In this document: positions 18,045-32,587 of the stretch, piece after piece
Layout of the letters: the number at the start of each line of letters is the position of its first letter
Numbering within the stretch: position 1 is the first letter of the stretch
Origin: a virus
Taxonomy: Duplodnaviria > Heunggongvirae > Uroviricota > Caudoviricetes
IMG/VR virus record: IMGVR_UViG_3300035703_000003
Length of the DNA stretch: 64,000 nt
Strand: one strand, 5' to 3'
The notes under the pieces: generated by a model
What the model saw: only the letters and a program-made list of their open reading frames with translations
Told to the model about the DNA's origin: nothing
Database searches by the model: none
Translations under genes and position numbers: made by a program

Positions 18045-18224
18045 TTAAAATCCGAGTTCTATGCCGCTATCTTGCCAACCCCAATGTTGATCGTTGGTTT
18101 TTTTGCAATGATCGCAATCACAATTATGGCAAACATCGTTACGACAATCTTTGCATTCACCACCACAATGGTGGCTGCACCCACAATTTTTGCAGGTGCA
18201 GCTTGAATGTTCTGTTATTTTCAT
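18045..18224 (-). CDS. Cys/His-rich metallothionein-like peptide (59 aa)
   Basis: Not in the track. MKITEHSSCTCKNCGCSHHCGGECKDCRNDVCHNCDCDHCKK...; 11 Cys; GGAG RBS; fills the gap exactly. Confidence 0.75.
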   Translation of the reverse strand: MKITEHSSCTCKNCGCSHHCGGECKDCRNDVCHNCDCDHCKKTNDQHWGWQDSGIELGF

Positions 18225-18227
18225 GTA

Positions 18228-20768
18228 TCACTCCATTACATAAACACGATAAGCGTCTTGTGACTTAGCCCATTTTGCGGCAGCTTTTTTCGCATCTGCA
18301 AAGCTACCTTGGAATTTAAATATCTCATCATCATCTGGCATGCCGTATTCACGTGTTGTAAACATCCACAGTGCAGAGTATCCAGGATCACGTGGTTTAC
18401 GACCATGCGATCTCATATGACGTGAGTAGTCTAATGTAACTGCTTCTTTTACTCTATCTTTTTTATCGTCTTTTTTATCAGCATTTTTTTGACTTTGCTC
18501 AATGCTTTTACGAATAATGTCTTGCGCTCGTGCCATTGCTCTTGCGTTGTGTCCTGACTTGGCTTTTGCTTCGGTTGAATTCCATTTGAGTCCACTGCTA
18601 GTAAAGACCCCTTCGTTACCGTCTTCACCGTCAATGACTTTTAATCCAATTGGATCTACTCCGTTTTTCTTAGCCATATCGATAAACTTTTGTTGCAACG
18701 GGTTGCCTGTTACATTTGCGCCGAAGTAATCATTCCATTGGTCTACTAATTTACCATCAACATATAGTTCTAGCATTGCAAAGTCTTCGCTGTAGTCGTA
18801 CCATTGCTTCATATAGGTACCTTCTTCAGCTTCGTCAAGTTCGACTTCTTCGTTTGCAAACACATATTCTTTACTAGCAATTCTTCTTTTTATTTCTTTT
18901 TCTGCTGATCTGTCGTGCTTGGCTACCTTCATTAACTTGTTGTGCGACCAGTTTTTAGCAGTAGCCGATTTATCAGATCTCCAATCAGCTTTTGTATCTG
19001 TCAGATTCTTACCGTAATATTCATCGTCGGCTGCTTTGCGACGCTTTGCATGGTCGCTGCTTTCTGCTACACCTTGATTTGAAGTTTTGCACTTAGGGCA
19101 AAAGCCGTTGTTCTTTTCCCATGCTTTAGCAGTTGATACTTCGTCGCACTTGACACAAGCAATTTTTTCTACGGCTTCGTTAAATGTTGATTCTTCTAAT
19201 TTAGAAATGTCGCCTTTTAGTAAGTCAAACTCTCTAGCAGCATCTGCAGCACCTTTGCCTGTGCGTTTCATCCATGCTTTTGCTTTTCTAATTGCGACTT
19301 GGCGCTTTTGTTCTGCACGGTTAACGGCTGCACCTAGTGTAGCTTTGTCTTCTTTCATATCACGAGTATTCTTCATACCGCTGTAGTCATTGTCCAGCTC
19401 TTTGAATTCTTCGTATGAAAGATACATATCAGTGTCACGGTCATAATATGAGCCTTCCTTTGGATCGTAGTAAACAACTTTACCACTTAGTGTCATGAAC
19501 GGACCTTCTAGGCCAGGAATTTCGTCATAACGTTCTTTATCAATGCTCTTTATTGTTTTATAACCTTCTTTTTGGACACTTTCGAATCCACGGGTGCTGC
19601 CATCCATTACACCAGGAGTTGGTGACATTTCACGACGGCCAACATTTGACGCTGGTCGTCTTTGTGGTCTTATACTAGTTGTTGGTGCAAGGTTTGAGCC
19701 TGCAGCGGGTGTGTTTGATTTTGTAAGGTTGTCAGGTCTTGCTTTCGGACCTGGTATATCTGTCATAAACTTGGCCCCTGCGCCCGGCTCTACTGCACCG
19801 CTTGGCCATTCATAGCCGCCGCCCGGTAAACTTCTGCCAGGTCTTGCAACCGGGCGTATACTAGTTTTTGGTGCTTCTTCTGTTGCTGCCATTGGTCTAG
19901 GCATTGGTCTCGCACTTGCTGCAGGTGCATTTGATTTTCTGTTAGCCATATTAGTTCCTACTCTTGTTCCTATTTGTGATCCAATTGATCCGCCGATCAT
20001 TCCGCCTACTGGACCTGCAATTGCGCTGCCTGCCATACGTCCAATTTGACCGCCTACCATAGATCCTACCATTCCTGGTCTTTGATTAGGCATTCCAGTT
20101 GACGATGCTGCTGTGGATTTTCTGATAACTGATGGATTCATTGTAGGAGTAGGAGCTTCTGACATCACAGTAGTAATCATTTGTGTAGTGTCTAGTGTAG
20201 GACCTTCGTTTAACTGTGACCACCCTGTAACATTAAATGTATCGTTTTCAAAGATAGTTAGCATACGAAGTCTATCTTTGTCGTTTGCAGTTAGATTGGG
20301 ATATGATTCAACAACTTGCTTCCAATCAGCAATGTGTGCTATTTCTTTAACAGCACTTTCTGATAAGTTACGCTTATTGTAGTATAAATTACTTTGTTCT
20401 TTAGCAACGCTTTCGCTTATTTGATTTTTTACAACAATATTGCTTACCATTTTAGCTTCAGAAACTTTTTTGTATTCGTCGAGAGCGGGCTTGAATCTTT
20501 TTAGAGTATTTTCATACTCTGCTAGCATACGATTGCTTTCTATAACATAAAGTTTGTTATTATCTTTGTATAAGTTAAGATATTCTAAAATACTGTTGTG
20601 CCAGTATGTTCTTGCAGTGTTCCATTTAATAAGACCATGTGCATAACATTCAAAAATGCTATACATATGTGCAGCTACTTTATGATAATCTCTGCCACTT
20701 TCTAAGTATAAAGCTCTGGACTTTTTACTTTCTTTTATAATTTCGTATGCTAATTCTAACTTTTTCAT
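18228..20768 (-). CDS. Large modular protein (Gly zipper, Pro-rich segment, Zn ribbon); putative processed virion polyprotein
   Basis: 846 aa with a mosaic of compositions and many [ILV]xE junctions; upstream TAAATA. Confidence 0.8.
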   Translation of the reverse strand: MKKLELAYEIIKESKKSRALYLESGRDYHKVAAHMYSIFECYAHGLIKWNTARTYWHNSILEYLNLYKDNNKLYVIESNRMLAEYENTLKRFKPALDEYKKVSEAKMVSNIVVKNQISESVAKEQSNLYYNKRNLSESAVKEIAHIADWKQVVESYPNLTANDKDRLRMLTIFENDTFNVTGWSQLNEGPTLDTTQMITTVMSEAPTPTMNPSVIRKSTAASSTGMPNQRPGMVGSMVGGQIGRMAGSAIAGPVGGMIGGSIGSQIGTRVGTNMANRKSNAPAASARPMPRPMAATEEAPKTSIRPVARPGRSLPGGGYEWPSGAVEPGAGAKFMTDIPGPKARPDNLTKSNTPAAGSNLAPTTSIRPQRRPASNVGRREMSPTPGVMDGSTRGFESVQKEGYKTIKSIDKERYDEIPGLEGPFMTLSGKVVYYDPKEGSYYDRDTDMYLSYEEFKELDNDYSGMKNTRDMKEDKATLGAAVNRAEQKRQVAIRKAKAWMKRTGKGAADAAREFDLLKGDISKLEESTFNEAVEKIACVKCDEVSTAKAWEKNNGFCPKCKTSNQGVAESSDHAKRRKAADDEYYGKNLTDTKADWRSDKSATAKNWSHNKLMKVAKHDRSAEKEIKRRIASKEYVFANEEVELDEAEEGTYMKQWYDYSEDFAMLELYVDGKLVDQWNDYFGANVTGNPLQQKFIDMAKKNGVDPIGLKVIDGEDGNEGVFTSSGLKWNSTEAKAKSGHNARAMARAQDIIRKSIEQSQKNADKKDDKKDRVKEAVTLDYSRHMRSHGRKPRDPGYSALWMFTTREYGMPDDDEIFKFQGSFADAKKAAAKWAKSQDAYRVYVME

Positions 20769-20814
20769 TTTTGTTTCCTGTGAACTTGTTATTATTTATT
20801 AAAATAGTCGATTA

Positions 20815-21990
20815 CTATTTGCCCGAAACAGTTCTCGATAATTCTAATGGATCGGCAATCGGTAATAATGGGGATTTCAAAGTAGGTATATTCAATCCGC
20901 CGCCGCCAGCTGGTCTTTTCCTTGTATTACCTGGAGGTGTATTTTGCGTTTGTGTTCTAGGCGCAGTTTGTGTTCCGGGTGTAGTTTGTGTTCCGGGTGT
21001 AGTTTGTGTTCCGGGTGTAGTTTGCGTTCTGGGTGCAGGTACTGGTGTGATAGGTGCTGTCCCTGGCGCAGGTACTGGTGTAATAGGTGCTGGTTCTGGT
21101 GTAATAGGTTCGGGTCCTGGTGCAGGCTCAGGTTCTCTTACTGGAGGTGTCTCTATTTCTGGTTCAGGTTCTCTTACTGGAGGTGTCTCTATTTCTGGTT
21201 CAGGATCTCTTACTGGAGGTGTCTCTATTTCTGGCGCCGGTGAATCAGGAATAATTACAGGCGGCTCGTTTGTATTTGGAGATTCTGGCGGTGCTGTCTG
21301 CGGTATAATTACAGGCGGCTCATCTTCTCTGGGTAGAACCGGCGGTTCGTCTCGGGTTGGTCCTTCTGGTGCCTCAGGTTCAAATGGCATGTCTTCGGGC
21401 CACCAGTCTGGTTGAGTTACAGGAATGTCAACAGGTTCTGCGTCGGGAGCAAATGCAGTAGTATCTCTAGACAATATTCTACTAGCTTCTTCTGCTGCGT
21501 TATACTCATCGGACTGTCTAGGGTCAGGCCAATTACCGTCTTCAATTTGTTGTTTTTCTACTTCTGACATTGCAGCAACACTTGCATTAACCATATCCAC
21601 GTATGCTTGTGGATTATTTTTTAGAAGATCTCGCTGAAATTCATATGCAATTTGTGCCGATGAACCCAGATATTCACTGCCCTCACCTGCGGGATCCGGA
21701 GTAAGTATTAATCCGATTGCGCCTAATGCCCTACCCAATACACCTTTAAATAATGATCCTGAATTAACTCTTACATTGGCTCCTGGTGCTGCGTTCATAT
21801 TTGCGGCTGCTTGACGAGCTAAATCTGGATTGTTATTTAAAAATTGAGTTAATGCGTTTTGAACGGAAGGTGGCTTCAAACTAGGATTTTGAGTTCCCAA
21901 AAAGTTAACAATCTGTGCAACATTTGGTGCAGCTTGCTCTGCTAACTTTTTTTTATCTTTATTGTTTTCAAACAACTCGTTTATACGCAT
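20815..21990 (-). CDS. Pro-rich repeat protein with MRINELFE tag; putative internal head protein
   Basis: N-terminal tag, PEIETPPVR and TQTTPG repeats; paralog of the next gene. Confidence 0.8.
   Translation of the reverse strand: MRINELFENNKDKKKLAEQAAPNVAQIVNFLGTQNPSLKPPSVQNALTQFLNNNPDLARQAAANMNAAPGANVRVNSGSLFKGVLGRALGAIGLILTPDPAGEGSEYLGSSAQIAYEFQRDLLKNNPQAYVDMVNASVAAMSEVEKQQIEDGNWPDPRQSDEYNAAEEASRILSRDTTAFAPDAEPVDIPVTQPDWWPEDMPFEPEAPEGPTRDEPPVLPREDEPPVIIPQTAPPESPNTNEPPVIIPDSPAPEIETPPVRDPEPEIETPPVREPEPEIETPPVREPEPAPGPEPITPEPAPITPVPAPGTAPITPVPAPRTQTTPGTQTTPGTQTTPGTQTAPRTQTQNTPPGNTRKRPAGGGGLNIPTLKSPLLPIADPLELSRTVSGK
20960..21235. repeat. In-frame coding tandem repeats (18-bp and 36-bp units)
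   Basis: (TQTTPG)n and (PEIETPPVR[D/E]PE)x3. Confidence 0.85.
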
Positions 21991-22033
21991 TTTTAGATTT
22001 CCTCGTTCGGTATATTATTAACTATTCTTTAGA

Positions 22034-23413
22034 TTATGGTCTATTAGGAACAACTCTCGATAATTCCAATGGATCGGCGATCGGTAATAACGGAGATTTC
22101 ATATAAAGAGTCGGCATGCCAAACCCTCGAGTAGTGCGAGGTTGTGAACGAGGTCGTGTGCGTTGTGTTGTGCGATTTCTTCCGTTGGGGTTATTTTTCG
22201 GATCACTCTTCGTTCTCAGATCGGGCTGTTCTAGCGGGTCAGTCTTACGTGATGGATCATTAAATCTTACTGGGGGATTAAACTCAGTTGATGGCAGTGG
22301 CTGAGTAATAGTTCCCGGCTCTGCTGCGGGGTCCGGAGTTTTTTCGTCTGGATCGCCTTGGTCATCGTCATCAGTTTGTGGGTTAAATGGCACTGGCCTT
22401 AGCGGCAACGGAAAAGTCGGTATATTTGTATCTGGCTTTGTCTCATCTGGCTTTGGCTTTATTTCTGCCGGCTTTGGATCTGTCTCTGCCGGCTTTGTTT
22501 CGTCCGGCTTTGGATCCGTCTCATCTGGCTTTGGTTCATCTGGCTTTGGATCCGTCTCATCTGGCTTTGTCTCATCTGGCTTTGGATCTGTCTCTGCTGG
22601 CTCTTCGTCTTCTTTATCAGGTTTTCGTGGAATCCAACGCACCGGTGGCGGAATACCATCATCTGGCTTCGGTTCGATTCGGTTCGGGCCGGGGGTATTG
22701 TCTGGCTCCGGGTCTGGTTTTTGTGGCTCTGGATCTTTTCGTGTCGGACTGTCAGGTGCATCTGGATTGTAAGGTATACCTTCAGGCCACCAATCTGGTT
22801 TGACATCTGGTTTAGGAATTGTTATAGGGTCGTCTGGATAAGGTGTTGCAGGAGCATCAGGTGCATCCGGTTCTATTACTGGTGCATCGGGCTCTATTAC
22901 TGGTGCATCCGGTTCTTTTACAGGTGCTTCAAATCTTGATATTGTATTCCAGGCAGAAATAGCATTTCTCTGTGCAGGAGTTAGTTTAGTTGTCTCTGTA
23001 TTTTTTATGCTATCTAAATAGTCTTGTATGTTATCTATATCAATCTCTTTAGAATTTTGTAGTGCAGAAAATGTATTAACTGCCGTTTGAGATAACTTAT
23101 CAATAAATTCTTTATTAGCTTTTTTAGTTTCAGCATCATAATCAACATCTGGACCGGATATGTAATTATAGAGATTCACAAAGGCCTTTAATACACCGCC
23201 ATGCTTCCCTACATTACGTATTAGTGCCCGACGGCCTGCATACCCGAGTCCAAATGCTATTAATTCTAGTGTGCCTGCGATAATAGGTGGTACCGCTGCT
23301 ACCGCATACTCGTTAAGTTGACGACCTTCAGTTAATGAGGATTTTTTAGCGATCTTATTGCTCTTAATCGATTCATTTATGTTTTTTGTTTTGTTAAGAT
23401 CGCTTATACGCAT
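22034..23413 (-). CDS. Pro/Asp/Glu/Lys repeat protein with MRISDL tag; putative internal head protein
   Basis: Start reassigned to 23413 (GAGG RBS). C-terminal KSPLLPIADPLELSR is shared with the neighbour. Confidence 0.8.
   Translation of the reverse strand: MRISDLNKTKNINESIKSNKIAKKSSLTEGRQLNEYAVAAVPPIIAGTLELIAFGLGYAGRRALIRNVGKHGGVLKAFVNLYNYISGPDVDYDAETKKANKEFIDKLSQTAVNTFSALQNSKEIDIDNIQDYLDSIKNTETTKLTPAQRNAISAWNTISRFEAPVKEPDAPVIEPDAPVIEPDAPDAPATPYPDDPITIPKPDVKPDWWPEGIPYNPDAPDSPTRKDPEPQKPDPEPDNTPGPNRIEPKPDDGIPPPVRWIPRKPDKEDEEPAETDPKPDETKPDETDPKPDEPKPDETDPKPDETKPAETDPKPAEIKPKPDETKPDTNIPTFPLPLRPVPFNPQTDDDDQGDPDEKTPDPAAEPGTITQPLPSTEFNPPVRFNDPSRKTDPLEQPDLRTKSDPKNNPNGRNRTTQRTRPRSQPRTTRGFGMPTLYMKSPLLPIADPLELSRVVPNRP
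22430..22600. repeat. In-frame coding tandem repeats (ETDPKPDETKPD-like, 36-bp)
   Basis: Repeated tctggctttg/gatc units. Confidence 0.85.
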
Positions 23414-23414
23414 T

Positions 23415-23867
23415 TTAGATTTCCTCGGCTGGCAAGTCGTTAACAATTTGAGCAGGATATTCGTTCATTGCAAGATATTCCATATAATTTCTTACACTGT
23501 TGATATAATCTGATGCTTTAGTGATTTTTGATTGCACCCAAGGTTCTAAATTGTCAGTGTCTTGTATCATACCGTGTAACTGAATTGCATCTTTTGCAAG
23601 TTTGTATAACTCGCTCTTTGCCATCCAACCATCTTCGTCACCGTCATCTAATACGCCTTCCATGATTTCACTCATGTAAACTACTGGCTCACGACCTTCT
23701 TTTAGTTCTGCGCTGTGACGCTTCATCCAGGCTTTTGCAACATCGATGTCTTCGAACACTTTACGTTCGACGCCATTGATGTCTAATACTTTATATGTGT
23801 TAGCACTTTCTTTAATTAACATTGGTGTAGCAATGACTTTTGCTGTTTGAATTTTATCTAGTCTCAT
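23415..23867 (-). CDS. Putative internal head protein
   Basis: MRLDKI start; LEPWVQSKITKASDYI module; internal IKE/LKE/IME sites. Confidence 0.7.
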   Translation of the reverse strand: MRLDKIQTAKVIATPMLIKESANTYKVLDINGVERKVFEDIDVAKAWMKRHSAELKEGREPVVYMSEIMEGVLDDGDEDGWMAKSELYKLAKDAIQLHGMIQDTDNLEPWVQSKITKASDYINSVRNYMEYLAMNEYPAQIVNDLPAEEI

Positions 23868-24067
23868 GGGACTCTCCGAATCATATTTGTGTATACTGGG
23901 GATTGAACTGTAGCATCCTTGCTTTCAAGTCCGACAGCTTTGCGGGCAGCTTTGTGATGTGCTTTGCCTTTTTTACCTGTGAATAGAGGCATTGCAACGG
24001 CAGCAATACTACCTGCTCCTGTTGCACCTGCGCTTGCTTCTTCTTTTACAATTTCCCAGACTTTCAT
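23864..24067 (-). CDS. Small tagged protein (MKVWEIVKEE)
   Basis: Tag followed by ASAGATGAGSIA; upstream TAAATA. Confidence 0.7.
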   Translation of the reverse strand: MKVWEIVKEEASAGATGAGSIAAVAMPLFTGKKGKAHHKAARKAVGLESKDATVQSPVYTNMIRRVP

Positions 24068-24124
24068 ATACTTATTTATTCAGGTATAAGTATTTGATAT
24101 ATTACAAATCTTTAAGGACAACGC

Positions 24125-25201
24125 ATGAAAATAGCTATAATGTTAACCGGGCTTTTAATAGATAAGGTTGACACCCTGCCACATATTAAAAAAATGTTTG
24201 ATTACATAGCGGCAAAGAATAATTTAGCAATTGATTATTATTGCCACTTTTGGGCTCCGGAAAACATGTATCCATACCATATCGACTATCATGCAACAAA
24301 AATTGCTGTTCCGTGGGAAAATCAAGGTAGTATAAATCACGCAATAGATATTTTTAAACCAATAAGTTATAAGGTAAGCAAATATTCAGAGATATTGCCG
24401 TATTTTGAAAATTATACAATTAGCTTATCAAAACATGACAAATGGCTAAACGAGGCGTTTAGTGATGCAGAGATGTTTGTCAATCACAACATACACAAAA
24501 GATTCTTTGTAGATAATTTTGAAGACCCCATTACTATATTCAACAAATGGTGGACTTATCATATTAACTGGTGTCAGTTTATTCATTATACTGCTCAGGT
24601 ATACAGTGTAAGTGAATTGATGAAAATAGTATCATCTAGCAACACAGATTATGATGCTGTTATAAAATGGAGATTTGATGTACTGTTCGATTATAAAAGT
24701 TTCGAATCGATGATAGTTGATCTCATTCGTAATATTAAGGATGATAATGCATTATATACAGAACTCGCTTGGGAGGGAATACAATGGACAGCCGATCTGA
24801 GATCGGATATTAATAATGTCGATAATAAACTAATAAGCCTACACGATGGCTGGTGGATAACAAACAAAGAAGTTAATAAAATCATGGCTAATAATTATCT
24901 CAACTGTTATATGTCGGACATGTGTAACACAGTAGGAAAAGAAGCTGGAACACACACATGGCATTATAACGGCGTAGTTAAGTGTGGTCTATATATTAAA
25001 TTAATTGGTAGAATAAATCATACAATCATAAGATTTCCTGCTAAAATACCACACGACTGGCACGAAAATACATCTAGTTATTATCCTCACTTATGGAATT
25101 CGCAATTTATCGCCAAAAAAGATAGTGATTTTAAAATGTCTTTACAATATTGGGACAAACGATCTCAATATTATACTATAAAACATTTTGATTTTTATTA
25201 A
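24125..25201 (+). CDS. Putative glycosyltransferase-like protein
   Basis: MKIAIMLTG...YDAVIKWRFD; AGGA RBS; related to the convergent neighbour. Confidence 0.6.
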   Translation: MKIAIMLTGLLIDKVDTLPHIKKMFDYIAAKNNLAIDYYCHFWAPENMYPYHIDYHATKIAVPWENQGSINHAIDIFKPISYKVSKYSEILPYFENYTISLSKHDKWLNEAFSDAEMFVNHNIHKRFFVDNFEDPITIFNKWWTYHINWCQFIHYTAQVYSVSELMKIVSSSNTDYDAVIKWRFDVLFDYKSFESMIVDLIRNIKDDNALYTELAWEGIQWTADLRSDINNVDNKLISLHDGWWITNKEVNKIMANNYLNCYMSDMCNTVGKEAGTHTWHYNGVVKCGLYIKLIGRINHTIIRFPAKIPHDWHENTSSYYPHLWNSQFIAKKDSDFKMSLQYWDKRSQYYTIKHFDFY

Positions 25202-26054
25202 AATTTTCATAATCTTCTTTTAGTAACTTAAAAGTCATTTGACTCATATCGTGGTTATTCCTTAACACTGTTGAATCAAACGCAGTAGGCCATGTTACCG
25301 AAAAACTTAACCAGTTAGTTTTACTATACGCACTTGTTTTCATCCATACCCAGTGTTGTAATATTGATTTGTAGTCTCCGACTTTTAAATCATAAAACAA
25401 TGGTTTGTGCTCTGTTACCAACTTAAAACAATGTTCTTTAAGATTTTTGCTATAGTTATACCAAGGCGTCGGTAAAGAAATAAAGCAAAAATCTCCGATG
25501 TGTGGAGTTCCGCTTTCAATGTATAACCATGGTGCCATTACTTTATCTCTAAACACTGGATTTCTGTGCATATTACTAAATGCTGCTAGCCATTCAGATT
25601 CTGAAATGTTATTTAATATAGTATCACTCCGGGTTCGCAAGACAACATCGTACATACCTTCTAAATTACCGGTCATTGAGGTCATGCCGTTGATAGCTAA
25701 GTATTGTCCGAAAAAATTAAAGCTATAGTCTGATATATGAGCTTCGTTAGTTTCAAATAAAATACTATGCCTTACGTTGTCAGGAATAAGATCTAAGTAA
25801 CGATTATCCTTAACATTATACGCTTTTACATTTCTGATAAACTCAGTCATAACGCTTTTGTAATCAGCGACATGATAACGAACAGGAGCGTATGTGTTTT
25901 CGATACGTTGTTTTAGATTCGGAGAACCGTCGTCCCAAAAATAGCAATAATAATCAACCTTTATATTATTATTTGCAAATACTTTATTTTTATACCACCA
26001 AGAGCCTTCTTCTAAGAATCTCGGTTGACCAGTGACTAGTATTGCTACCCGCAT
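25176..26054 (-). CDS. Putative glycosyltransferase-like protein
   Basis: MRVAILVTGQPR...YDVVLRTRSD. Confidence 0.6.
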   Translation of the reverse strand: MRVAILVTGQPRFLEEGSWWYKNKVFANNNIKVDYYCYFWDDGSPNLKQRIENTYAPVRYHVADYKSVMTEFIRNVKAYNVKDNRYLDLIPDNVRHSILFETNEAHISDYSFNFFGQYLAINGMTSMTGNLEGMYDVVLRTRSDTILNNISESEWLAAFSNMHRNPVFRDKVMAPWLYIESGTPHIGDFCFISLPTPWYNYSKNLKEHCFKLVTEHKPLFYDLKVGDYKSILQHWVWMKTSAYSKTNWLSFSVTWPTAFDSTVLRNNHDMSQMTFKLLKEDYENFNKNQNVL

Positions 26055-26062
26055 ATAACCTC

Positions 26063-27253
26063 TTAATTTAACGGCAATTCGGGATTCGGTGTTGTGAAGT
26101 TCTTTTTACGCATTACTGTTTTAGCAACTAAGTCTAGCACTTGACTGTGTGAATCCCAATTTAACACAAAAGGAACGTTAATATCAGAACGCATGTCCTT
26201 GATAACAGCTTGTGCATCAGGACCCATTTGTGCAATCTTTTTACCATAATTAATATACGTGTCTTTGAATAAAATTGCAAGTTCTTTTATTGTGATTTGT
26301 TTCATGTTTCTTTCATCGTTAACACGGTCAAGGAAGTGACGTGTAAATTCTACGTCAATGCCTAACTTTCTAAACAGTTGGTCTAGATACTTTTCTAGTG
26401 TGTCTAACTGAACTTGTGTAATTTGCGGATTGTCTTCTTCATTTATGCCGTATTTGCTTACATATAGTTTTTCTAATTCACGTGGACTTAATCCAGCTGC
26501 GAAACTGTTTGCGATACGGAATGCATAATCACCTAACGAATGTCTTTCGCCCTTGCTTTTTACAAGTCTATGCATTGCTTCTAGTGCTGCATTGATTAGT
26601 TTTTCTTTTGCTTTTACGTTATATTCTTCTCTGTTCATTTCGCTTACATCTCTCACTGTTCTGATGCTACCATCATGGTTTACGAAATATGCTGAAAATT
26701 TCACATTAGGATATTCTTGTTGTAGTTTGTTAAACACTTTCAAGTTAGTCATACTATCGTCATACATTCTAACACGACCGTATTTTCCCGTATCCAAATA
26801 ACGTCTTACAAAAACAGCTTTTTTCTCTGCAGGTATTGCATTACTTCTAATATTACCCGCTCTATGCACATGTATTAAGTCTATATTAATACCATGTTGT
26901 CTAAATGTATCTAGGAAAAGATCTTTGTCATCGAAATCTTCTCTTGCAGTTAACATAATAACTTTACTATCGCCTGCGTTCTGCAATATAGCATTTAGTT
27001 TTGCTATCATTGGTTTCATAGGCTCGCTTTCTTTATTAAACTTCTCTGCATTTCTGAATTCGCCAAAGTCAAACTCTTCGCCGGGCTGCAATTCATAATT
27101 GTTGAATTGTTGATTGTCTAATGTTTTTACTACATTACCATCCTTTACTACTTTTATCTTAGCAGTAGTATGGAATAATGTATCATCAATATCAAATATG
27201 GTTAATCCTAAGTTAGAATCACCATAAGCCTCGAAAAGTTCTTTTAATCTCAT
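26063..27253 (-). CDS. Tagged (MRLKELFE) HAD phosphatase fused to further modules
   Basis: IFDIDDTLF, LTAR, K and YDD HAD motifs; C-terminal FTRHFLDRVNDERN module. Confidence 0.8.
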   Translation of the reverse strand: MRLKELFEAYGDSNLGLTIFDIDDTLFHTTAKIKVVKDGNVVKTLDNQQFNNYELQPGEEFDFGEFRNAEKFNKESEPMKPMIAKLNAILQNAGDSKVIMLTAREDFDDKDLFLDTFRQHGINIDLIHVHRAGNIRSNAIPAEKKAVFVRRYLDTGKYGRVRMYDDSMTNLKVFNKLQQEYPNVKFSAYFVNHDGSIRTVRDVSEMNREEYNVKAKEKLINAALEAMHRLVKSKGERHSLGDYAFRIANSFAAGLSPRELEKLYVSKYGINEEDNPQITQVQLDTLEKYLDQLFRKLGIDVEFTRHFLDRVNDERNMKQITIKELAILFKDTYINYGKKIAQMGPDAQAVIKDMRSDINVPFVLNWDSHSQVLDLVAKTVMRKKNFTTPNPELPLN

Positions 27254-27266
27254 TTATCTAAATCCT

Positions 27267-28166
27267 TTAACGGCGTGTTGTGTTTGATGGCGGTGTCAAC
27301 GGTCTAGATGTGCCGCCAGGTCTTGCGGCTTGACCTGGACCTGCTACTGTTCCGCTTGGATTGAATCTCGGAGTTCCGGGTAATGGATTTGGATTTATTG
27401 TTCCCCCAGGTCTTGCGGCTTGACCTGGACCTGCTACTGTTCCGCTTGGATTGAATCTCGGAGTTCCGGGTAATGGATTTGGATTTATTGTTCCCCCAGG
27501 TCTTGCGGCTTGACCTGGACCTGCTACTGTTCCGCTTGGATTGAATCGTGTAGGTGGTACATTACTGCTAGCTGGTGGTCTTGCTGCGTCTAAGCCATCT
27601 TGATAACCACGTCTACGTTGTAATTCTGTGTTGCCGTCTCCTCGCCCGCCTGTTGCTGGACTAGCTGCTGGCATACTACCCTGGGCGCCAACTGTTGGTC
27701 TTGCTCCGCCTTGCGCTCTGTTTAACGCAGACATAGTTTGATCACCGGCAATTCCGTCTACTTGTAAACCAAAATCTGTTTGAAATTGTTTAACCGCGGC
27801 GGCAGTTCTTGGACCAAATTTTCCATCTGCTCCGGTGTCTCCAAGATCATAACCTTTGTCTATCAACATTTGTTGAAGGCCGCTTACATCAGAACCAGAC
27901 GAGCCACGTCTTAGATTTGAAGTAGTTGTCCCAGGAGCTCGTACACCTGTGGGTGCTCCACTAGTCGATTGATCAGGTCTAGTTGGTTGTCCCCGAGTTA
28001 TAGGCCCGCTAACTTCTTGGCCTGGTCTAGCTGGTAATCCTCTGAATACAGGCCCGCCAGGTCTTGCACTTTGTCCTGGTCCAGCCACTGTTCCGTCGGG
28101 ATTAAAATTCGGAGTTCCCCTGCCGGCAGGTAATGCTGGTCTTTCAAATAAATCTTTCAATCTCAT
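27267..28166 (-). CDS. Tagged (MRLKDLFE) peptidoglycan-binding domain protein with 30-aa repeats
   Basis: LRRGSSG...DGKFGPRT...VDGIAG PG-binding domain. Confidence 0.85.
   Translation of the reverse strand: MRLKDLFERPALPAGRGTPNFNPDGTVAGPGQSARPGGPVFRGLPARPGQEVSGPITRGQPTRPDQSTSGAPTGVRAPGTTTSNLRRGSSGSDVSGLQQMLIDKGYDLGDTGADGKFGPRTAAAVKQFQTDFGLQVDGIAGDQTMSALNRAQGGARPTVGAQGSMPAASPATGGRGDGNTELQRRRGYQDGLDAARPPASSNVPPTRFNPSGTVAGPGQAARPGGTINPNPLPGTPRFNPSGTVAGPGQAARPGGTINPNPLPGTPRFNPSGTVAGPGQAARPGGTSRPLTPPSNTTRR
27316..27548. repeat. Near-perfect 90-bp coding tandem repeat (about 2.6 copies)
   Basis: Units start at 27316, 27406 and 27496 and encode PRFNPSGTVAGPGQAARPGGTINPNPLPGT. Confidence 0.9.
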
Positions 28167-28402
28167 TTTGTTTTTTTCTCCCGGACCAGATCGTCCTTGT
28201 ATTCTTCTATGTAGTATTCTAGTGATTTATCACCACTACATATTTCAAAGTTTTCATTATTTATTGTTTTGCCTCTTATAAGATTTTTAGTTTTTTTGTC
28301 AATACTCTTAACATGTATTACCATGTCCTTATCCTGATGCTTATAATAAATTATATGCTGCGGATTAAAGTATCTCCAAATCTTTTTAAAAAACAATTTC
28401 AT
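28163..28402 (-). CDS. Hypothetical protein
   Basis: ATGA overlaps on both sides. Confidence 0.65.
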   Translation of the reverse strand: MKLFFKKIWRYFNPQHIIYYKHQDKDMVIHVKSIDKKTKNLIRGKTINNENFEICSGDKSLEYYIEEYKDDLVREKKTK

Positions 28403-29811
28403 TTCTCACGACCTGCTTTCATATTAGCAAGCCAGTGTGCCATACGCTGCTTTTCGCCTGAACTATTTTTAGCTGTTTTTCGCAAATCACTAACACTGGC
28501 TTTGGTATTTACACCCATACGCTTTGCCAGACCTTTGCGCCCTGGATTTTTACCATCTGCAAAGTTTTCATTTGTTTTTTCTACAGGGAAATATGCTTTA
28601 ATAGTTTTACCCATACGTTGCGCTGCGGCTGCACGATGGTTGCCATCAATTACACTGTACTTACCGTCACTAAACTGTGGTCCTACAATAATTGGTGCGC
28701 TTAGGTCAACACGATGACTGTAGTCGATATCTACAATACGATCAAATGGATCATCATAGTCGAAGAATTCTTCCTCACTTGGGAACATGTCTGGGGTAAA
28801 GTTTCCAAGTTGCCAATCATGAGCTAAGATGAACCGATCCATGTCTTTGTTCATACCAGCATCGTGATGCATACCTCTGAAGATTTTCAGCATTTCTTTG
28901 CCAGATTCTTCAGCTAATCCTTCTCTAGCCGCCGCTGCTTTTTCATCACTAGTATCGCCGGTAACCTTGTATGTTTTACCGTTTACACTAAATTCTTTTT
29001 TACCTGCTTTGATAGCATTCATACGTGCATCAGTAAATGGGTTTGATTCGTTAATATTGTCTGATAATAGATTAACAATTTTAGGCAATAGAGACTGATT
29101 CCTTGTAGCTTCTGGCAAGTCGCTATCTTTCATTGGTCTAATGCCTTTTATTTTTACATGCTCATTCTTTTCAAAACGTTTAATAAACTTCTCAACGGGC
29201 AATGGGCCGTCATAGTCAATTAATGTGTTTCCAAGTTTAACTGCAGCGTGATCTGCGTTGCCACGATCATTAATAAGAACCACTATATCTCCACCGTGTA
29301 TTTTTTGTAATGCTTGTGCTACTAATACACATCCACCATCAAACGGACCACAATCTTCGGGTTCTAAAATGTCATAAATGTTTTCTTTTGCTTCATTAGT
29401 AAGATCATGTGCAACCTTAAGTGCTGCTGGACCTTGTGGATGTCTTGGATTGATACTAACAACATCGCCGTTCATAAGATCACTGACGCTGGCACTCTTG
29501 CCTATTTTGTCTAACAGTTGATGTAACTTATCCTCAGGATCATAACCGTTTGTCTCGTATCCTAGTTTACCACGCACTTCAGTTCGCTTGCCTGTTTGTT
29601 TGTTTAAAATATGTAGGACTAGCATACCTGCACGGTTGTCACGCTCCAGTTGTAACATGTAACTATTGCCACTGCTTTCTTTAAGATAAGGTAAACTGAA
29701 CCACAGCTTAAACCAATCGTCTGTTCCTGGCTTTACTTTCTTTTCACGCTCGATGTCACGCAAACGCTTGCTTGTATGACTAATATTTTCTGATATTTCG
29801 TTTATTTTCAT
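28399..29811 (-). CDS. Tagged (MKINEISE) multi-module protein including a ParB-like domain
   Basis: PIIV...VIDGNHRAAA ParB motif; GGC...HA...IDYDG possible Cys-His-Asp module. Confidence 0.8.
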   Translation of the reverse strand: MKINEISENISHTSKRLRDIEREKKVKPGTDDWFKLWFSLPYLKESSGNSYMLQLERDNRAGMLVLHILNKQTGKRTEVRGKLGYETNGYDPEDKLHQLLDKIGKSASVSDLMNGDVVSINPRHPQGPAALKVAHDLTNEAKENIYDILEPEDCGPFDGGCVLVAQALQKIHGGDIVVLINDRGNADHAAVKLGNTLIDYDGPLPVEKFIKRFEKNEHVKIKGIRPMKDSDLPEATRNQSLLPKIVNLLSDNINESNPFTDARMNAIKAGKKEFSVNGKTYKVTGDTSDEKAAAAREGLAEESGKEMLKIFRGMHHDAGMNKDMDRFILAHDWQLGNFTPDMFPSEEEFFDYDDPFDRIVDIDYSHRVDLSAPIIVGPQFSDGKYSVIDGNHRAAAAQRMGKTIKAYFPVEKTNENFADGKNPGRKGLAKRMGVNTKASVSDLRKTAKNSSGEKQRMAHWLANMKAGREK

Positions 29812-30173
29812 TTCGCCAGACCTAAGTTAAACAATGTATTTGTTGTGCTAGTATTTAACAGTTTTGGCTTGCCGTCGCCTCCGAAAAACTTTTTAGCTTG
29901 ACGCTCAGTTTCACCGGGCTTAACATCGACTGTAGTATTAACACCAGGAACAATTTTACCATCTTCATCTACACGCTTGCCACGCTTACCGTAAGCACCG
30001 CCTGCATACCACTCACACCATCCGTTTGGGTCTATGTTACCTGCAACTGCACTACATTTGTTAGGATCTCTCCACATTGTGCAGTTAATACATTTTTGTC
30101 CGTTCTTAGGATCAGGCTGATAACCTGCTTCAGCCTTAGACCCTTTCCCTTCAAATAGCTCATGTATTCTCAT
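29808..30173 (-). CDS. Tagged (MRIHELFE) high-potential iron-sulfur protein (HiPIP)-like
   Basis: AGYQ...CINC-x8-C-x10-GWCEWY, the four-Cys HiPIP pattern. Confidence 0.8.
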   Translation of the reverse strand: MRIHELFEGKGSKAEAGYQPDPKNGQKCINCTMWRDPNKCSAVAGNIDPNGWCEWYAGGAYGKRGKRVDEDGKIVPGVNTTVDVKPGETERQAKKFFGGDGKPKLLNTSTTNTLFNLGLAK

Positions 30174-31366
30174 CTTGGTCCTACTCCCATTGCCGTTGGC
30201 GGTGTTCCAGTTGATGGTTTAGGTTTAGGAGGAGTGATAGGCTTTGGTGCAGACTTGGGGGGAGTTAATCCGGTCCCTGTTCTATCTTGTGCGCCCATCG
30301 GTGTTGGACTTCCTGACCCTGTAGTTAGTTTAGGTATATTAGTCGGAGTAGTTGGGGCCACTCTCGGTGTTGGACTAACAGGTCTAGTAGGTAAACTTAC
30401 GTTGTTAAAGATTTCTCGCATAGCACTTAATGTTTGCACGCCTGCTATACCATCAACTTGTAGACCGTAATCTTGTTGAAACTTTCTTACCGCTGCAGTT
30501 GTATTCCCGCCATAACGACCGTCGACTCCCTGATCGCCTACAGTATATCCTAATGTTGTAAGACCTTTTTGTAAAGTTTTAACACTGTCTAATGGAACAC
30601 CTTCTGCTCTGTAATCTCTTTTAAGATTTATTGCTCCACTAGGACCTGGCAACTTACTAACATCAATTTTAGGGATAACTTTAGGTGGTATAACGTTTAC
30701 TCTAGCAGGAATACTTGTAAATGGATTTGGAACGGCATTCGGGGGAGTTAACTTGGGACGTTCTAAGTTCGGTGCGGACATAGTAGACACTGTTGTTCTA
30801 AACGCAGATGGTGATGTATAATTTGGCCCAGCTGTAGTTAATGCTCTATCTAATGTATTATATCCTGCTGATAAGTTTGCATATCCATCTGCACTGTAAT
30901 TAGGATCAGTGCGACGCCATCTAATATAGTTGTCTCCTAATACTTCTGCTGCAGTGTTAGGGTCAATATCAGGATTTCCTAAAAATTCGGTTGCAGTTCT
31001 ACGATATGACGGCTCGTTTTCCATTTCATATCTAACAAACTTTGCTTGTGCATCTAATGTTTCTTGTCCGGGTATAAGATTTCCGCTATTATCTATCCGG
31101 CCTTGGTCGTTCATAAATCTCATAAATGAATCATGACGTGGTCCTTGCCAGCTAATCATACCTGCATTGCTAGCACGATTGTATGGATCTGTATGCGTTC
31201 CATACAAATATCTGTCTTGAAAACTATTTTCTCTATTAACCTCTGCAGTAAGAGCTCTTGCTTGAGCATCACTAAATCCTGCATTAGTAAATGCATTATA
31301 AACGCCCAATGCGTTTGCTTCACGACTAGTTAATTCTCCTGCTTCGAACAGTTCTTTTAATCTCAT
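30170..31366 (-). CDS. Tagged (MRLKELFE) phage tail lysozyme-like domain plus PG-binding domain
   Basis: GFSDAQARALTAEVNRENSF, GMISWQGPR and LDAQAKFV; DGRYGGNT...VDGIAG. Confidence 0.8.
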   Translation of the reverse strand: MRLKELFEAGELTSREANALGVYNAFTNAGFSDAQARALTAEVNRENSFQDRYLYGTHTDPYNRASNAGMISWQGPRHDSFMRFMNDQGRIDNSGNLIPGQETLDAQAKFVRYEMENEPSYRRTATEFLGNPDIDPNTAAEVLGDNYIRWRRTDPNYSADGYANLSAGYNTLDRALTTAGPNYTSPSAFRTTVSTMSAPNLERPKLTPPNAVPNPFTSIPARVNVIPPKVIPKIDVSKLPGPSGAINLKRDYRAEGVPLDSVKTLQKGLTTLGYTVGDQGVDGRYGGNTTAAVRKFQQDYGLQVDGIAGVQTLSAMREIFNNVSLPTRPVSPTPRVAPTTPTNIPKLTTGSGSPTPMGAQDRTGTGLTPPKSAPKPITPPKPKPSTGTPPTAMGVGPR

Positions 31367-31370
31367 TTTA

Positions 31371-32006
31371 TTATCCTGCTAGTATAGTTAATAGTTGTAG
31401 TATTGCTTCTGGATGCATCGATTGTCTTGGTGTAGCTAACAGTTGAATTTCTGTTCGCATTTTGTCTGCGTCTTCTGGACTTACTCCACGGCTTTCTAGT
31501 TTGTCGATAAGATTGTTAATTTTATTTAAATCAATCGGGAGTGGTGGTTGCTCTTGTTCTCCTGCTTCTGTTGCAAAGGATCTTAATTTTCTTGCTATTT
31601 TAGGGTCTCTTAGTAATCTTAACGCTTTTACTCCTAGTTGGCCGACACGGCCATCGCTTATTCCCAATACATTTGCTATTTGTGTATTTGTCATAGGATT
31701 ATTAAATGGTTCAATTCCAAACTGTGCTTTAAGTATTAGTGCGTATCGGCGTGGTAATTGATCTATTGCTGCATGTATTTCTTTTGTTAGTTCTTCACGA
31801 TTTACTGTATCGAATTGGTCAGCATCATAGCTACCGGTGGGGAAATCAACTTGTGTGCCTTTAACAGTAATGTCTCTTTTACTAATACTTTTACTGTTAG
31901 GCACTCTGCCCCCGATAGTAGTGTTGCGGTATGTTTCGCTGTCTGGATTGTATAACGCCATTACCTGCTTATCACTAAATGTTTCTGATAAATCTCTTAG
32001 TTTCAT
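31371..32006 (-). CDS. Tagged (MKLRDLSE) sigma70 region-4-like HTH protein
   Basis: LPRRYALILKAQFGI...RVGQLGVKALRLLRDPKIARKLRSF aligns by eye to the RpoD C-terminus. Confidence 0.8.
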   Translation of the reverse strand: MKLRDLSETFSDKQVMALYNPDSETYRNTTIGGRVPNSKSISKRDITVKGTQVDFPTGSYDADQFDTVNREELTKEIHAAIDQLPRRYALILKAQFGIEPFNNPMTNTQIANVLGISDGRVGQLGVKALRLLRDPKIARKLRSFATEAGEQEQPPLPIDLNKINNLIDKLESRGVSPEDADKMRTEIQLLATPRQSMHPEAILQLLTILAG

Positions 32007-32560
32007 TTTTTATATTGTCCCAAATATTCAGCTACTAAGTCAAAGAAAGGTTTACCATCAATCATAGTATCGGCAGATACACCTGCAGCATCTGCAAATG
32101 CTTGTTTGTCTCCCATTGCAACCGCTGTTCTTAATGCAGTTGCACTACTTAATCTTGGTGTTGGCACTTGTGTTATTTTAGGGAAGTTATAACCACCATG
32201 TGCGCCCTCTTTGCCATTATATTGCTGTAATGTTTTTAAAACCCAATCTTCGTCGGTATAGATCCTCAATTCAACATCGCCGTGTTTTTGATAAATTTCG
32301 TTTGCAAGTGTAAGCCAGCTTTGACTAGGTGCAATATGCTTTGCTACTTCTGGCCAAATAGTTTCCATTGCTTTTATTTTTACATCATATGGTAACGGAT
32401 CTTTTGGACCTTGTGTAGATTTGTTTGTGCCAACATACCAAGCAGGATTTTCACTAGCCATTTGCCATGCAGCTTTATGACCTTTATGAGGAGGATTGAA
32501 TCGTCCAAATATTAATCCTACACTATTAACGTTTGCTTCAAATAATTCGAATAATCTCAT
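32003..32560 (-). CDS. Tagged (MRLFELFE) HxGH nucleotidyltransferase
   Basis: FGRFNPPHKGH, KDPL and SSATALR motifs. Confidence 0.85.
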   Translation of the reverse strand: MRLFELFEANVNSVGLIFGRFNPPHKGHKAAWQMASENPAWYVGTNKSTQGPKDPLPYDVKIKAMETIWPEVAKHIAPSQSWLTLANEIYQKHGDVELRIYTDEDWVLKTLQQYNGKEGAHGGYNFPKITQVPTPRLSSATALRTAVAMGDKQAFADAAGVSADTMIDGKPFFDLVAEYLGQYKK

Positions 32561-32587
32561 TTTACTGTTTCCTTGTCAACCTTGTCA

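What the first reader, a model, noticed from the sequence alone, without database searches (positions are those of the whole stretch)
18228..29811. Beads-on-a-string polyproteins with internal [ILV/hydrophobic]xE junctions between modules
Seen: in 28399-29811 the modules are separated by YLKE|SS, LTNE|AK, NINE|SN, GLAEE|SG and KTNE|NF. In 18228-20768 the junctions are NLSE|S, QLNE|G, KLEE|STFNE|A, GVAE|S, ELDE|A and RVKE|A. In 26063-27253 they are DVSE|M and GINEE|D. Beyond this span, 29808 has RVDE|DG and 32588 has GLFE|AE. Composition changes abruptly at these points. Inference: the prohead protease cuts single gene products into several small independent effectors, so one tag delivers many cargos and modules can be shuffled between genes.
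Basis: partly seen in the sequence, partly recalled or inferred. Interest (0 to 1): 0.85.

Follow-up and report, generated by a model that had tools for sequence, protein, structure and literature searches.

The report
Phage head-cargo polyproteins with protease-site joints
An uncultured giant T4-like water phage builds several of its probably head-packaged proteins as strings of small swappable modules, and every joint carries the short motif that T4-type head proteases cut, so one gene probably yields several small injected proteins, although no cut has been measured.

Summary
All 17 junction strings are present in minus-strand ORFs. The motif alone proves nothing: [LIV]xE is no denser in these genes (1.44 per 100 aa) than in the window's other ORFs (1.56).

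Homology to the 470-aa protein (28399-29811) breaks at its five listed sites, in 80 IMG/VR loci and 2,501 representative proteins. The modules recur in other orders. They also occur as stand-alone genes where a T4-like capsid-targeting tag ends in Glu directly before the module (MRINELFE|NFADG).

- One module has 49 different upstream contexts. P1 is Glu in 49 of 49 and P3 is V/I/L/M in 38 of 49.
- Module interiors are depleted of the motif.
- AlphaFold places the junctions in low-confidence linkers.
- A syntenic complete relative (382 kb) has a gp21-type protease and a scaffold with 9.1 sites per 100 aa.

One listed site (NLSE|S) is uncorroborated, and three junctions were missed.

Cleavage, packaging and injection are inferred, not shown. 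I rate it a new variant of the T4 internal-protein system. I found no paper describing it. This scan has noted the same pattern on many other phage genomes.

The parts
28399..29811 (-). P0002, a 470-aa cargo polyprotein. Layout: tag MKINEISE, then module A (9-45), B (46-140), C (141-255, Cys/His-bearing), D (256-302), E (303-415, ParB/Srx-like with IDGNHR) and F (416-470, basic, NFADGKNPGRKG).
   Evidence: Translation. Homology break-points fall at 43-51, 140-143, 297-303 and 409-415. There are 2,501 representative relatives with module-wise matches. AlphaFold gives mean pLDDT 77.9 and pTM 0.36, with low-confidence linkers at all five junctions. ParB-fold matches are weak: PadC Z 4.4, SerK Z 4.3, SbnI Z 4.0.
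28567..29679 (-). The five P1 Glu codons of the P0002 junctions: E45 (29677-29679), E140 (29392-29394), E255 (29047-29049), E302 (28906-28908) and E415 (28567-28569).
   Evidence: Coordinates. In relative L002, module B is absent between YLKE| and |AKENIY, exactly at the two predicted scissile bonds.
18228..20768 (-). P0001, an 846-aa protein. It has an N-terminal helical domain (1 to about 155), a disordered Gly/Pro/Met-rich stretch with a glycine zipper (about 165-398), then about seven small modules: 402-473, 474-531, 532-569 (zinc ribbon), 570-646, 647-733, 734-775 and 776-846.
   Evidence: Translation, PHROG hits and homology break-points. Relatives L089 and L093 split the gene at KLEE|STFNE|A, and their second gene starts MRFDNINE|GVAKIA. 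L084 and L085 insert several extra modules (4 and 8 by my reading), each bounded by VDE|A, LSE|A, INE|A or MNE|S. AlphaFold result.
18444..20207 (-). P1 Glu codons of the supported P0001 junctions: E188 (20205-20207), E401 (19566-19568), E473 (19350-19352), E526 (19191-19193), E531 (19176-19178), E569 (19062-19064), E646 (18831-18833), E733 (18570-18572) and E775 (18444-18446). NLSE137 (20358-20360) is not corroborated.
26063..27253 (-). P0003, 396 aa. Layout: tag MRLKELFE, a HAD-type phosphatase module (9-205), module 206-272, and module 273-396. The P1 Glu codons are E205 (26639-26641) and E272 (26438-26440).
   Evidence: Translation. Weak HAD and polynucleotide-kinase hits. The HAD module stands alone in 201-203-aa genes with tags MISFKEFITE|G and MKRFSQFIAE|A. 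It also sits inside other polyproteins after LLNE|A and NMFE|E. Residues 216-395 and 277-393 occur as stand-alone genes.
29808..30173 (-). A 121-aa protein: tag MRIHELFE, a HiPIP-like module, RVDE70|DG (Glu codon 29964-29966), then a 51-aa C-terminal module.
   Evidence: Pfam HiPIP hit, E 3.4e-5. In relative G001 the same C-terminal module follows NMNE| at residue 242 of a 484-aa protein, after other inserted modules.
32588..32944 (-). A 118-aa tagged protein with GLFE39|A (Glu codon 32828-32830). The conserved module starts at residue 40.
   Evidence: The phrog_7595 match starts at residue 40. The site is listed. Support is only partial.
18045..32944 (-). A run of 14 minus-strand ORFs, nearly all starting with a T4 CTS-like leader (MRLKELFEA, MRINELFEN, MRLKDLFER, MRIHELFEG, MRLFELFEA and others). 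Two untagged low-GC genes at 24125-26054 and a 79-aa ORF at 28163-28402 interrupt it.
   Evidence: ORF list with N-termini. Domains found: lysozyme and peptidoglycan-binding, sigma-70 region 4, cytidylyltransferase, HiPIP.

Best explanation
The window comes from an uncultured aquatic jumbo phage of the T4 superfamily. Genes 18045-32944 encode head cargo: proteins carrying an N-terminal leader like the T4 capsid-targeting sequence.

Several of them are polyproteins (18228-20768, 26063-27253, 28399-29811, 29808-30173). Each is a string of independently folding modules of about 40 to 200 residues, most of them the size of a T4 internal protein. Short linkers ending in [V/I/L/M/F/T]-x-Glu join the modules.

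Inferred mechanism:
1. The leader docks the precursor onto the scaffold core of the prohead.
2. The gp21-type prohead protease cuts after each exposed junction Glu, as it cuts the leader.
3. The released modules stay in the head and enter the host with the DNA.

Because targeting is supplied once and each joint is a self-contained three-residue signal, modules can be inserted, deleted or moved at the joints without loss of delivery. This would explain the combinatorial shuffling seen across thousands of metagenomic proteins.

Shown here: modularity, shuffling with break-points at the joints, conservation of P1 Glu and a hydrophobic P3, depletion of the motif inside modules, linker location in the models, and the protease gene plus motif-rich scaffold in a syntenic relative.

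Inferred only: packaging, cleavage, retention in the head, injection, and the functions of the modules.
For: **Tags.** 14 clustered ORFs start with leaders resembling the T4 CTS. In T4 the CTS is 10 residues. Residues 4 and 7 govern targeting and residues 8 and 10 (P3 and P1) govern processing. Asp at P1 blocks cutting. The gp21 motif is L/I-X-E (PMC9026906). T4 Alt is cut at ITE-6 and LTE-619 (PMC5694885).

**Module boundaries.** HSP break-points of P0002 cluster at the five listed sites, and matches in 2,501 representative proteins are module-wise.

**Same Glu in tags and joints.** In stand-alone genes the tag's last Glu directly precedes the module: MRINELFE|NFADG, MRAKEFITE|NFADG, MKINEVILKE|GYQLRLE, MKISDILSE|ENIYDILEPEDC, MRAIELITE|SISGT and MRFDNINE|GVAKIAC. 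Internal copies of the same modules follow xVAE|, GLTE|, YLKE|, GLAE| and TFNE|.

**Motif conservation.** Module F has 49 distinct upstream contexts. P1 is Glu in 49 of 49 and P3 is V/M/I/L in 38 of 49. P4 to P6 do not resemble the tag.

**Depletion inside modules.** Across homologues, cores hold 0.14 to 0.56 sites per 100 aa (modules A, B and E) where 1.3 to 2.3 are expected, z -6.6 to -8.2. Non-cargo ORFs of the window are not depleted.

**Structure.** In P0002 all five junctions fall in or next to the only pLDDT<50 segments, and pTM is 0.36. P0001 broadly agrees.

**Exact rearrangements.** Module B is excised between YLKE| and |AKENIY in L002. Modules are inserted at RVKE| in L084 and L085. 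The gene is split at TFNE| in L089. A module is inserted after the HiPIP domain in G001.

**Protease.** PF03420 (gp21-type) is present in 3 of 5 large related contigs. G001 is syntenic with the window (DNA polymerase 58% identical). Next to its protease gene lies a scaffold with 33 sites in 363 aa, against 1.89 per 100 aa genome-wide.
Against: - No proteomic or biochemical datum exists for this phage or any close relative. Cutting, packaging and injection are all inferred.
- The window holds no protease gene and no whole genome is held. The protease is known only from relatives.
- Raw motif density is not enriched in the cargo genes.
- T4 gp21 does not cut every L/I-x-E, so some joints may stay intact.
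- Some joints deviate from the motif: P3 is Thr in LTNE and KTNE, Gln in VQKE401|G, and Ser in NSTE733|A.
- The helical N-terminal domain of P0001 holds about 11 motif matches inside confident helices, which cannot all be joints.
- AlphaFold draws KLEE526/TFNE531 inside a continuous helix.
- Homologous segments are not independent, so the depletion z-scores are inflated.
- The invariant Glu could in principle belong to each module's own conserved N-terminus.
- Some modules also occur in cultured T4-like phages without an obvious tag: KVP40.0154, Melnitz_31 and phiM12 gp159.
Confidence: 0.7

Rival explanations
1. These are uncut multidomain ejection proteins, that is, ordinary polyvalent proteins. 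The N-terminal leader may be removed, but the internal [hydrophobic]-x-Glu linkers are only flexible joints. The chains are packaged and injected whole.
For: T4 gp21 leaves many L/I-x-E sites uncut. Polyvalent proteins of 2 to 15 domains are known, and some, such as the N4 virion RNA polymerase, are packaged unprocessed (PMC5512222). AlphaFold draws some joints as helix, namely E301/302 of P0002 and E526/531 of P0001.
Against: A mere linker does not need an invariant Glu (49 of 49) with a hydrophobic residue two positions before it across unrelated upstream modules. It does not explain why the tag's own terminal Glu occupies the same place in stand-alone genes. It also does not explain why module interiors avoid the motif.
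Confidence: 0.15
2. The junction motifs are scars or recombination signals, not protease sites. Either each module was once a separate tagged gene and fusions left the last residues of the downstream tag behind, or the joints are short DNA cassettes that promote module exchange. Under this view the protein-level motif is a by-product.
For: In related loci the frequent QGVAE linker is fixed at silent positions. GTG makes up 78% of its Val codons and GCG 73% of its Ala codons, against 18% and 7% in the same loci. Genes split and fuse exactly at joints.
Against: The window's own joints differ from each other in DNA and protein. Its single QGVAE uses the common codons GTA and GCA. Across contexts only P1 and P3 are kept, which are the processing positions of the T4 CTS, and not the rest of the tag. 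An unselected scar would decay. A three-residue degenerate motif is too short to drive homologous recombination. The DNA-cassette role can coexist with cleavage rather than replace it.
Confidence: 0.1
3. The sites were selected by eye from a common tripeptide and have no meaning. The proteins are ordinary multidomain proteins unrelated to the capsid.
For: [LIV]xE is common: 1.44 per 100 aa here and 1.56 in the other ORFs.
Against: Break-point enrichment, junction logos, AlphaFold linkers, motif depletion within modules, and exact-bond rearrangements. By my own rough estimate, not a tool result, five of five P0002 boundaries each having a site within 3 residues has a chance probability near 4e-5, given 9 sites in 470 aa.
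Confidence: 0.03

Closest known systems
Phage T4 internal proteins IPI, IPII, IPIII and Alt: capsid-targeting sequence plus gp21 processing (Mullaney & Black 1996; reviewed in PMC9026906, PMC5694885)
   Same: Both have a short N-terminal leader ending in a hydrophobic-x-Glu site, clustered hypervariable cargo genes, and a gp21-type serine protease in the lineage. Most modules are the size of T4 internal proteins. Alt is cut at both ends (ITE-6 and LTE-619).
   Different: T4 cargo genes encode one mature protein each. Here one leader precedes up to about eight unrelated modules, each joint keeps only the processing half of the CTS, and modules are permuted between genes on a very large scale. 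No sequence similarity to the T4 internal proteins was seen.
Polyvalent proteins of phages and conjugative elements (Iyer, Burroughs, Anand, de Souza & Aravind 2017, PMC5512222)
   Same: Many unrelated domains sit in one polypeptide that is predicted to enter the host with the DNA. ParB-like, peptidoglycan-degrading and nucleotide-enzyme domains occur. Mosaicism is extensive.
   Different: That paper predicts processing by embedded zincin-like metallopeptidase domains or autoproteolysis. Here no peptidase domain was detected. The joints instead carry the motif of the separate prohead protease, and an N-terminal CTS-like leader supplies targeting.
T4 scaffold and core proteins gp22, gp67 and gp68, which gp21 cuts at many sites
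   Same: One chain carries multiple L/I-x-E sites. The G001 scaffold homologue has 9.1 sites per 100 aa.
   Different: Scaffold fragments are disposable peptides. Here the pieces between sites are conserved, folded modules that avoid the motif internally.
Processed head and inner-body proteins of phiKZ, 201phi2-1 and SPN3US (S/A/G-x-E; PMC5694885, PMC10052503)
   Same: A gp21-related protease cuts after Glu, and several sites can occur in one ejection-protein precursor.
   Different: In those phages the extra sites lie in N-terminal propeptides that are discarded. P3 is small (Ser, Ala or Gly) there, whereas it is V/I/L/M here.
Polyproteins of RNA viruses
   Same: One translation product is cut by a viral protease at short recurring junction motifs into separate functional proteins.
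   Different: This is an analogy only. Here the substrate is an accessory cargo of a dsDNA phage, cut inside the prohead, and the module order is free.

Membership tests
T4-type capsid-targeted, gp21-processed head cargo | An N-terminal leader of about 8-10 residues ending in L/I-x-Glu | tested here: met
   MRLKELFE|A, MRIHELFE|G, MRLFELFE|A, MKINEISE|N and similar leaders start most of the 14 clustered ORFs. Relatives carry MKRFSQFIAE|A and MISFKEFITE|G; for comparison, the T4 leader as I recall it is MKTYQEFIAE, which no call here returned.
T4-type capsid-targeted, gp21-processed head cargo | A gp21-type prohead serine protease (Peptidase_S77, PF03420) encoded by the phage | tested here: inconclusive
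   The window has none and no whole genome is held. It is present over the curated cut-off in 3 of 5 large related contigs, including the complete, syntenic 381,886-bp G001.
T4-type capsid-targeted, gp21-processed head cargo | The protein is physically in the head and is cut after the motif Glu | not testable with these tools
   This needs virion proteomics or a protease assay.
T4-type capsid-targeted, gp21-processed head cargo | Sequence homology to T4 IPI, IPII, IPIII or Alt | tested here: inconclusive
   No Pfam or PHROG family of internal proteins matched. No direct comparison with the T4 proteins was run. T4 internal proteins are known to be poorly conserved (PMC9026906).
Polyvalent proteins (Iyer et al. 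2017) | 2 to 15 domains of disparate activity in one polypeptide of a phage or plasmid | tested here: met
   P0002 has six modules including a ParB/Srx-like one. P0003 has a HAD phosphatase plus two others. P0001 has about nine parts.
Polyvalent proteins (Iyer et al. 2017) | An embedded zincin-like metallopeptidase or other peptidase domain predicted to process the chain | tested here: inconclusive
   No peptidase family was found in P0001-P0003 at E<=0.01, nor in the P0002 and P0003 segments scanned at E<=5. Module C carries Cys, His and Asp residues of unknown role, so a cryptic peptidase is not excluded.
phiKZ-type processed ejection and inner-body proteins | Cleavage motif S/A/G-x-Glu, with a small residue at P3 | tested here: not met
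   P3 is V/M/I/L in 38 of 49 contexts of module F and Ala or Ser in 2. The window's joints have L, T, I, L, T, V, L, V, V, I and F at P3.

The most novel reading that the evidence does not exclude
The joints are dual-purpose elements. At the protein level they are a minimal, processing-only half of the capsid-targeting signal, so that any module placed behind one is released in the head. At the DNA level, in some lineages (the codon-fixed QGVAE cassette), they are a recombination boundary. Together these would form a natural plug-and-play system that lets aquatic T4-like phages assemble and re-assort their repertoire of injected proteins module by module. This would be a polyprotein strategy not so far described for dsDNA phages.
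Probability: 0.35. Interest if true: 0.78.

Novelty: new variant of a known kind. Interest (0 to 1): 0.62.

Why it matters
Proteins injected with phage DNA act before any phage gene is expressed, so they are prime candidates for counter-defence and host take-over. In T4 each cargo has its own gene and tag.

If one tag can load a chain that the head protease cuts into many small proteins, three things follow.
- The injected repertoire of abundant aquatic T4-like and jumbo phages is much larger and more fluid than gene counts suggest.
- Thousands of 'hypothetical' metagenomic proteins gain a predicted location and processing map.
- The rule that a module released after hydrophobic-x-Glu is delivered gives a simple way to find new early-acting phage proteins, and to load several proteins at once into T4-type capsids.

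The prediction is directly testable by virion mass spectrometry.

Tried and rejected
- **Raw motif enrichment.** It is not significant against the window's other ORFs, so I rejected it as evidence.
- **Nucleotide and protein searches of cultured phages.** The 12-kb region has no megablast match and P0002 has no tblastn match. Only single modules of P0001 and P0003 occur in cultured T4-like phages (KVP40 group, Melnitz, phiM12, Flavobacterium and Paraglaciecola phages), without an obvious tag there. No proteomic evidence could be borrowed.
- **Whole genome of the window.** It is not held.
- **Pfam on single modules.** This gave nothing beyond weak HAD and ParB-fold (DUF1015) hints.
- **Fold searches of the whole P0002 model.** Foldseek gave no match at E<=0.001. 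VIA-align gave no Z>=5, and only weak ParB/Srx-fold rows. The Atlas search for module B found only a 97-aa viral hypothetical cluster. Module functions therefore stay mostly unknown.
- **A simple regular expression for tags.** It under-counts them because at least three leader variants exist.
- **Literature searches for a prior description.** None was found. The terms tried were capsid targeting sequence, polyprotein, prohead protease, ejection proteins and internal proteins.

Full report
**What the window is**

The window is phage DNA. Its family-B DNA polymerase (11649-14348) is 43-48% identical to those of Rak2/CBB-like jumbo phages and Sinorhizobium phage Phosso. There is no nucleotide match in cultured phages, and no whole genome is held.

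A complete 381,886-bp IMG/VR contig, G001, is syntenic with the window. The shared order is DNA polymerase (58% identical), a phrog_3577 homologue, a tagged gene cluster, structural genes, ClpA and DnaJ.

**The observation**

They lie in a run of 14 ORFs (18045-32944). Nearly all begin with a leader such as MRLKELFEA, MRINELFEN, MRIHELFEG or MKINEISEN. These resemble the T4 capsid-targeting sequence (CTS).

Counting alone does not support the finding.
- [LIV]xE occurs 1.44 times per 100 aa in the tagged genes and 1.56 in the other ORFs.

**Homology boundaries, P0002 (28399-29811)**

A scan of IMG/VR gave 217 relatives, of which 80 were kept. An exhaustive profile search gave 2,501 representative proteins at E<=0.001.

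The matches are module-wise. HSP break-points cluster at residues 43-51, 140-143, 297-303 and 409-415. The best-stretch ranges add a boundary at about 252-257.

The modules recur in other orders. In the closest relative (L002, 1,148 aa) the order is A-C-x-D-x-E-x-B-x-F. There module B is missing between YLKE| and |AKENIY, exactly at the two predicted scissile bonds.

The modules also occur as stand-alone genes in which the tag's last Glu directly precedes the module. Examples are MRINELFE|NFADGK (65 aa), MRAKEFITE|NFADG, MKINEVILKE|GYQLRLE, MKISDILSE|ENIYDILEPEDC and MRAIELITE|SISGT.

**Junction logos**

Module F (NFADGKNPGRKG...) has 49 distinct upstream contexts.
- P1 is Glu in 49 of 49.
- P3 is V/M/I/L in 38 of 49.
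- P2 varies.
- P4 to P6 do not resemble the tag.

Module B is preceded by [LIVMF]-x-E-G in most of 61 contexts. Modules C, D and E behave the same way.

I ran an unbiased all-against-all test on 164 proteins. [LIVMF]xE is 3 to 6.6 times enriched at offsets -2 to +6 from 1,952 internal HSP starts. Over offsets -3 to +7, 69% have a site where 19% is expected.

Module interiors show the opposite. Across homologues they hold 0.25 (A), 0.56 (B) and 0.14 (E) sites per 100 aa, where composition predicts 1.3 to 2.3. The z-scores are -6.6 to -8.2. These z-scores are inflated because homologues are not independent. Non-cargo ORFs show no depletion.

**P0003, P0001 and the neighbouring genes**

P0003:
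- Its HAD module (to about residue 205, DVSE|M) stands alone in 201-203-aa genes with tags MISFKEFITE|G and MKRFSQFIAE|A.
- The same module sits inside other polyproteins behind LLNE|A or NMFE|E.
- Residues 216-395 and 277-393 occur as separate genes.

P0001:
- Relatives L089 and L093 split the gene at KLEE|STFNE|A, and the second gene begins MRFDNINE|GVAKIAC.
- L084 and L085 insert several extra modules of roughly 50 to 200 aa (4 and 8 by my reading), each bounded by VDE|A, LSE|A, INE|A or MNE|S. The last insertion is exactly at RVKE|A.
- NLSE137|S has no support.

HiPIP gene (29808-30173): the module after RVDE70| follows NMNE| at residue 242 of a 484-aa G001 protein.

ORF 32588-32944: its PHROG match begins at residue 40, right after GLFE39.

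**Structure**

The AlphaFold model of P0002 used a 52-sequence alignment. Mean pLDDT is 77.9 but pTM is only 0.36, which indicates confident domains without a fixed mutual arrangement. The only segments below pLDDT 50 are 43-47, 143-161, 235-255, 298-300 and 415-420, and these are the five junctions.

P0001 is modelled less well (pLDDT 60). It has folded parts at 1-150, 401-460, 650-730 and 800-846. Low-confidence segments end or begin near E401, E646, E733 and E775. KLEE526/TFNE531 is drawn inside a helix. The many motif matches in the N-terminal helical domain lie within confident helices, so they are not joints.

Fold searches identified only a weak ParB/Srx-like fold for module E.

**The protease**

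T4 gp21 cuts after Glu in L/I-X-E. In the 10-residue T4 CTS, residues 4 and 7 govern targeting and residues 8 and 10 (P3 and P1) govern processing. Asp at P1 blocks cutting (PMC9026906). Alt is cut at ITE-6 and LTE-619 (PMC5694885).

The internal joints here keep exactly the two processing positions and not the rest of the tag.

PF03420 (gp21-type) is present in 3 of 5 large related contigs. In G001 it sits in T4 order between the portal and the scaffold and major capsid genes. The scaffold has 33 [LIVMF]xE sites in 363 aa, or 9.1 per 100 aa, against 1.89 genome-wide. This is what a gp22-like substrate of such a protease should look like.

**Rival readings**

- *Uncut multidomain proteins.* This does not explain the invariant Glu, the shared position with the tag's end, or the internal depletion.
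- *Fusion scars or DNA recombination signals.* This has some support in relatives. The common QGVAE linker is encoded with GTG (78%) and GCG (73%), while these codons make up 18% and 7% of Val and Ala codons in the same loci. The window's own joints are diverse, however, and its one QGVAE uses the common codons. This mechanism may therefore add to cleavage rather than replace it.

**Comparison with what is known**

The CTS and gp21 system, and the diversity of internal proteins, are classic T4 knowledge. Multi-site cutting is known for scaffolds and for the propeptides of phiKZ-like phages.

Multidomain injected 'polyvalent proteins' are also described. Their predicted processing is by embedded metallopeptidases, which were not detected here.

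I found no paper describing cargo polyproteins joined at prohead-protease motifs. Earlier notes of this scan report the same pattern in many other uncultured T4-like phages, so this window is one more instance of a recurrent, apparently unpublished phenomenon.

**Verdict**

Noticed in passing
L134:10134-11225 (G001 190134-191225, minus strand) and about 70-aa ORFs such as L052:7512-7727: The scaffold homologue of the relative ends in ...IDIKRLAGLN. A widespread family of about 70-aa ORFs starts with M(D/N)xxxxxK(K/R)LAG(I/V)(N/T)E| followed by module A of P0002. This second leader type resembles the scaffold's C-terminus and may be another way of docking to the prohead.
   Followed up: no
related loci L006-L080 (for example L040, L045, L037); window 19062-19076: The frequent linker QGVAE is encoded almost always as CAA GGT GTG GCG GAA in related phages. 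GTG is 78% of its Val codons against 18% background, and GCG is 73% of its Ala codons against 7%. This suggests a DNA-level cassette boundary. The window's single QGVAE uses GTA GCA.
   Followed up: partly
window 24125-26054: Two untagged genes face each other in convergent orientation: 24125-25201 (+) and 25176-26054 (-). Their N-termini are similar (MKIAIMLTG... and MRVAILVTG...). GC is markedly lower here (0.33 against about 0.40), and they interrupt the cargo cluster. This looks like an inserted pair. Function is unknown apart from a phrog_13607 match.
   Followed up: no
window 18045-18224: A 59-aa tagged ORF (MKITEHSS...) is extremely rich in Cys and His (CTCKNCGCSHHCGGECKDCRNDVCHNCDCDHC). 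It could be a metal-binding mini-cargo.
   Followed up: no
window 20199-20768 and 19575-20198: P0001 differs from the other cargo genes. It has a conserved helical N-terminal domain (pLDDT>90) with 13 hydrophobic-x-Glu matches in 190 aa, then about 230 disordered residues with a glycine-zipper stretch that matches phrog_15869 and phrog_6922. It may be a membrane-inserting ejection protein, or a scaffold-like part that is degraded.
   Followed up: partly
window 20815-21990 and 22034-23413: Two tagged proteins carry short Pro-rich tandem repeats (PVREPE twice; PVKEPD, PVIEPD, PVIEPD). These also match hydrophobic-x-Glu but are followed by Pro.
   Followed up: no
L147:2414-2665 (KVP40.0154); L146:3905-4354 (Melnitz_31); L145:1540-3348 (phiM12 gp159): Single modules of the window's polyproteins exist in cultured T4-like phages as small stand-alone or differently fused genes in early or replication regions, without an evident capsid tag. 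Cargo polyproteins seem to recruit modules from the general pool of small phage genes.
   Followed up: partly
window 16543-17415, 27267-28166, 30170-31366: Three separate proteins carry the PG_binding_1 domain. One is an untagged endolysin-like protein (16543-17415). Two are tagged cargo proteins, and one of those also has a tail-lysozyme domain. This implies wall-degrading enzymes delivered from the head as well as a lysis enzyme.
   Followed up: no
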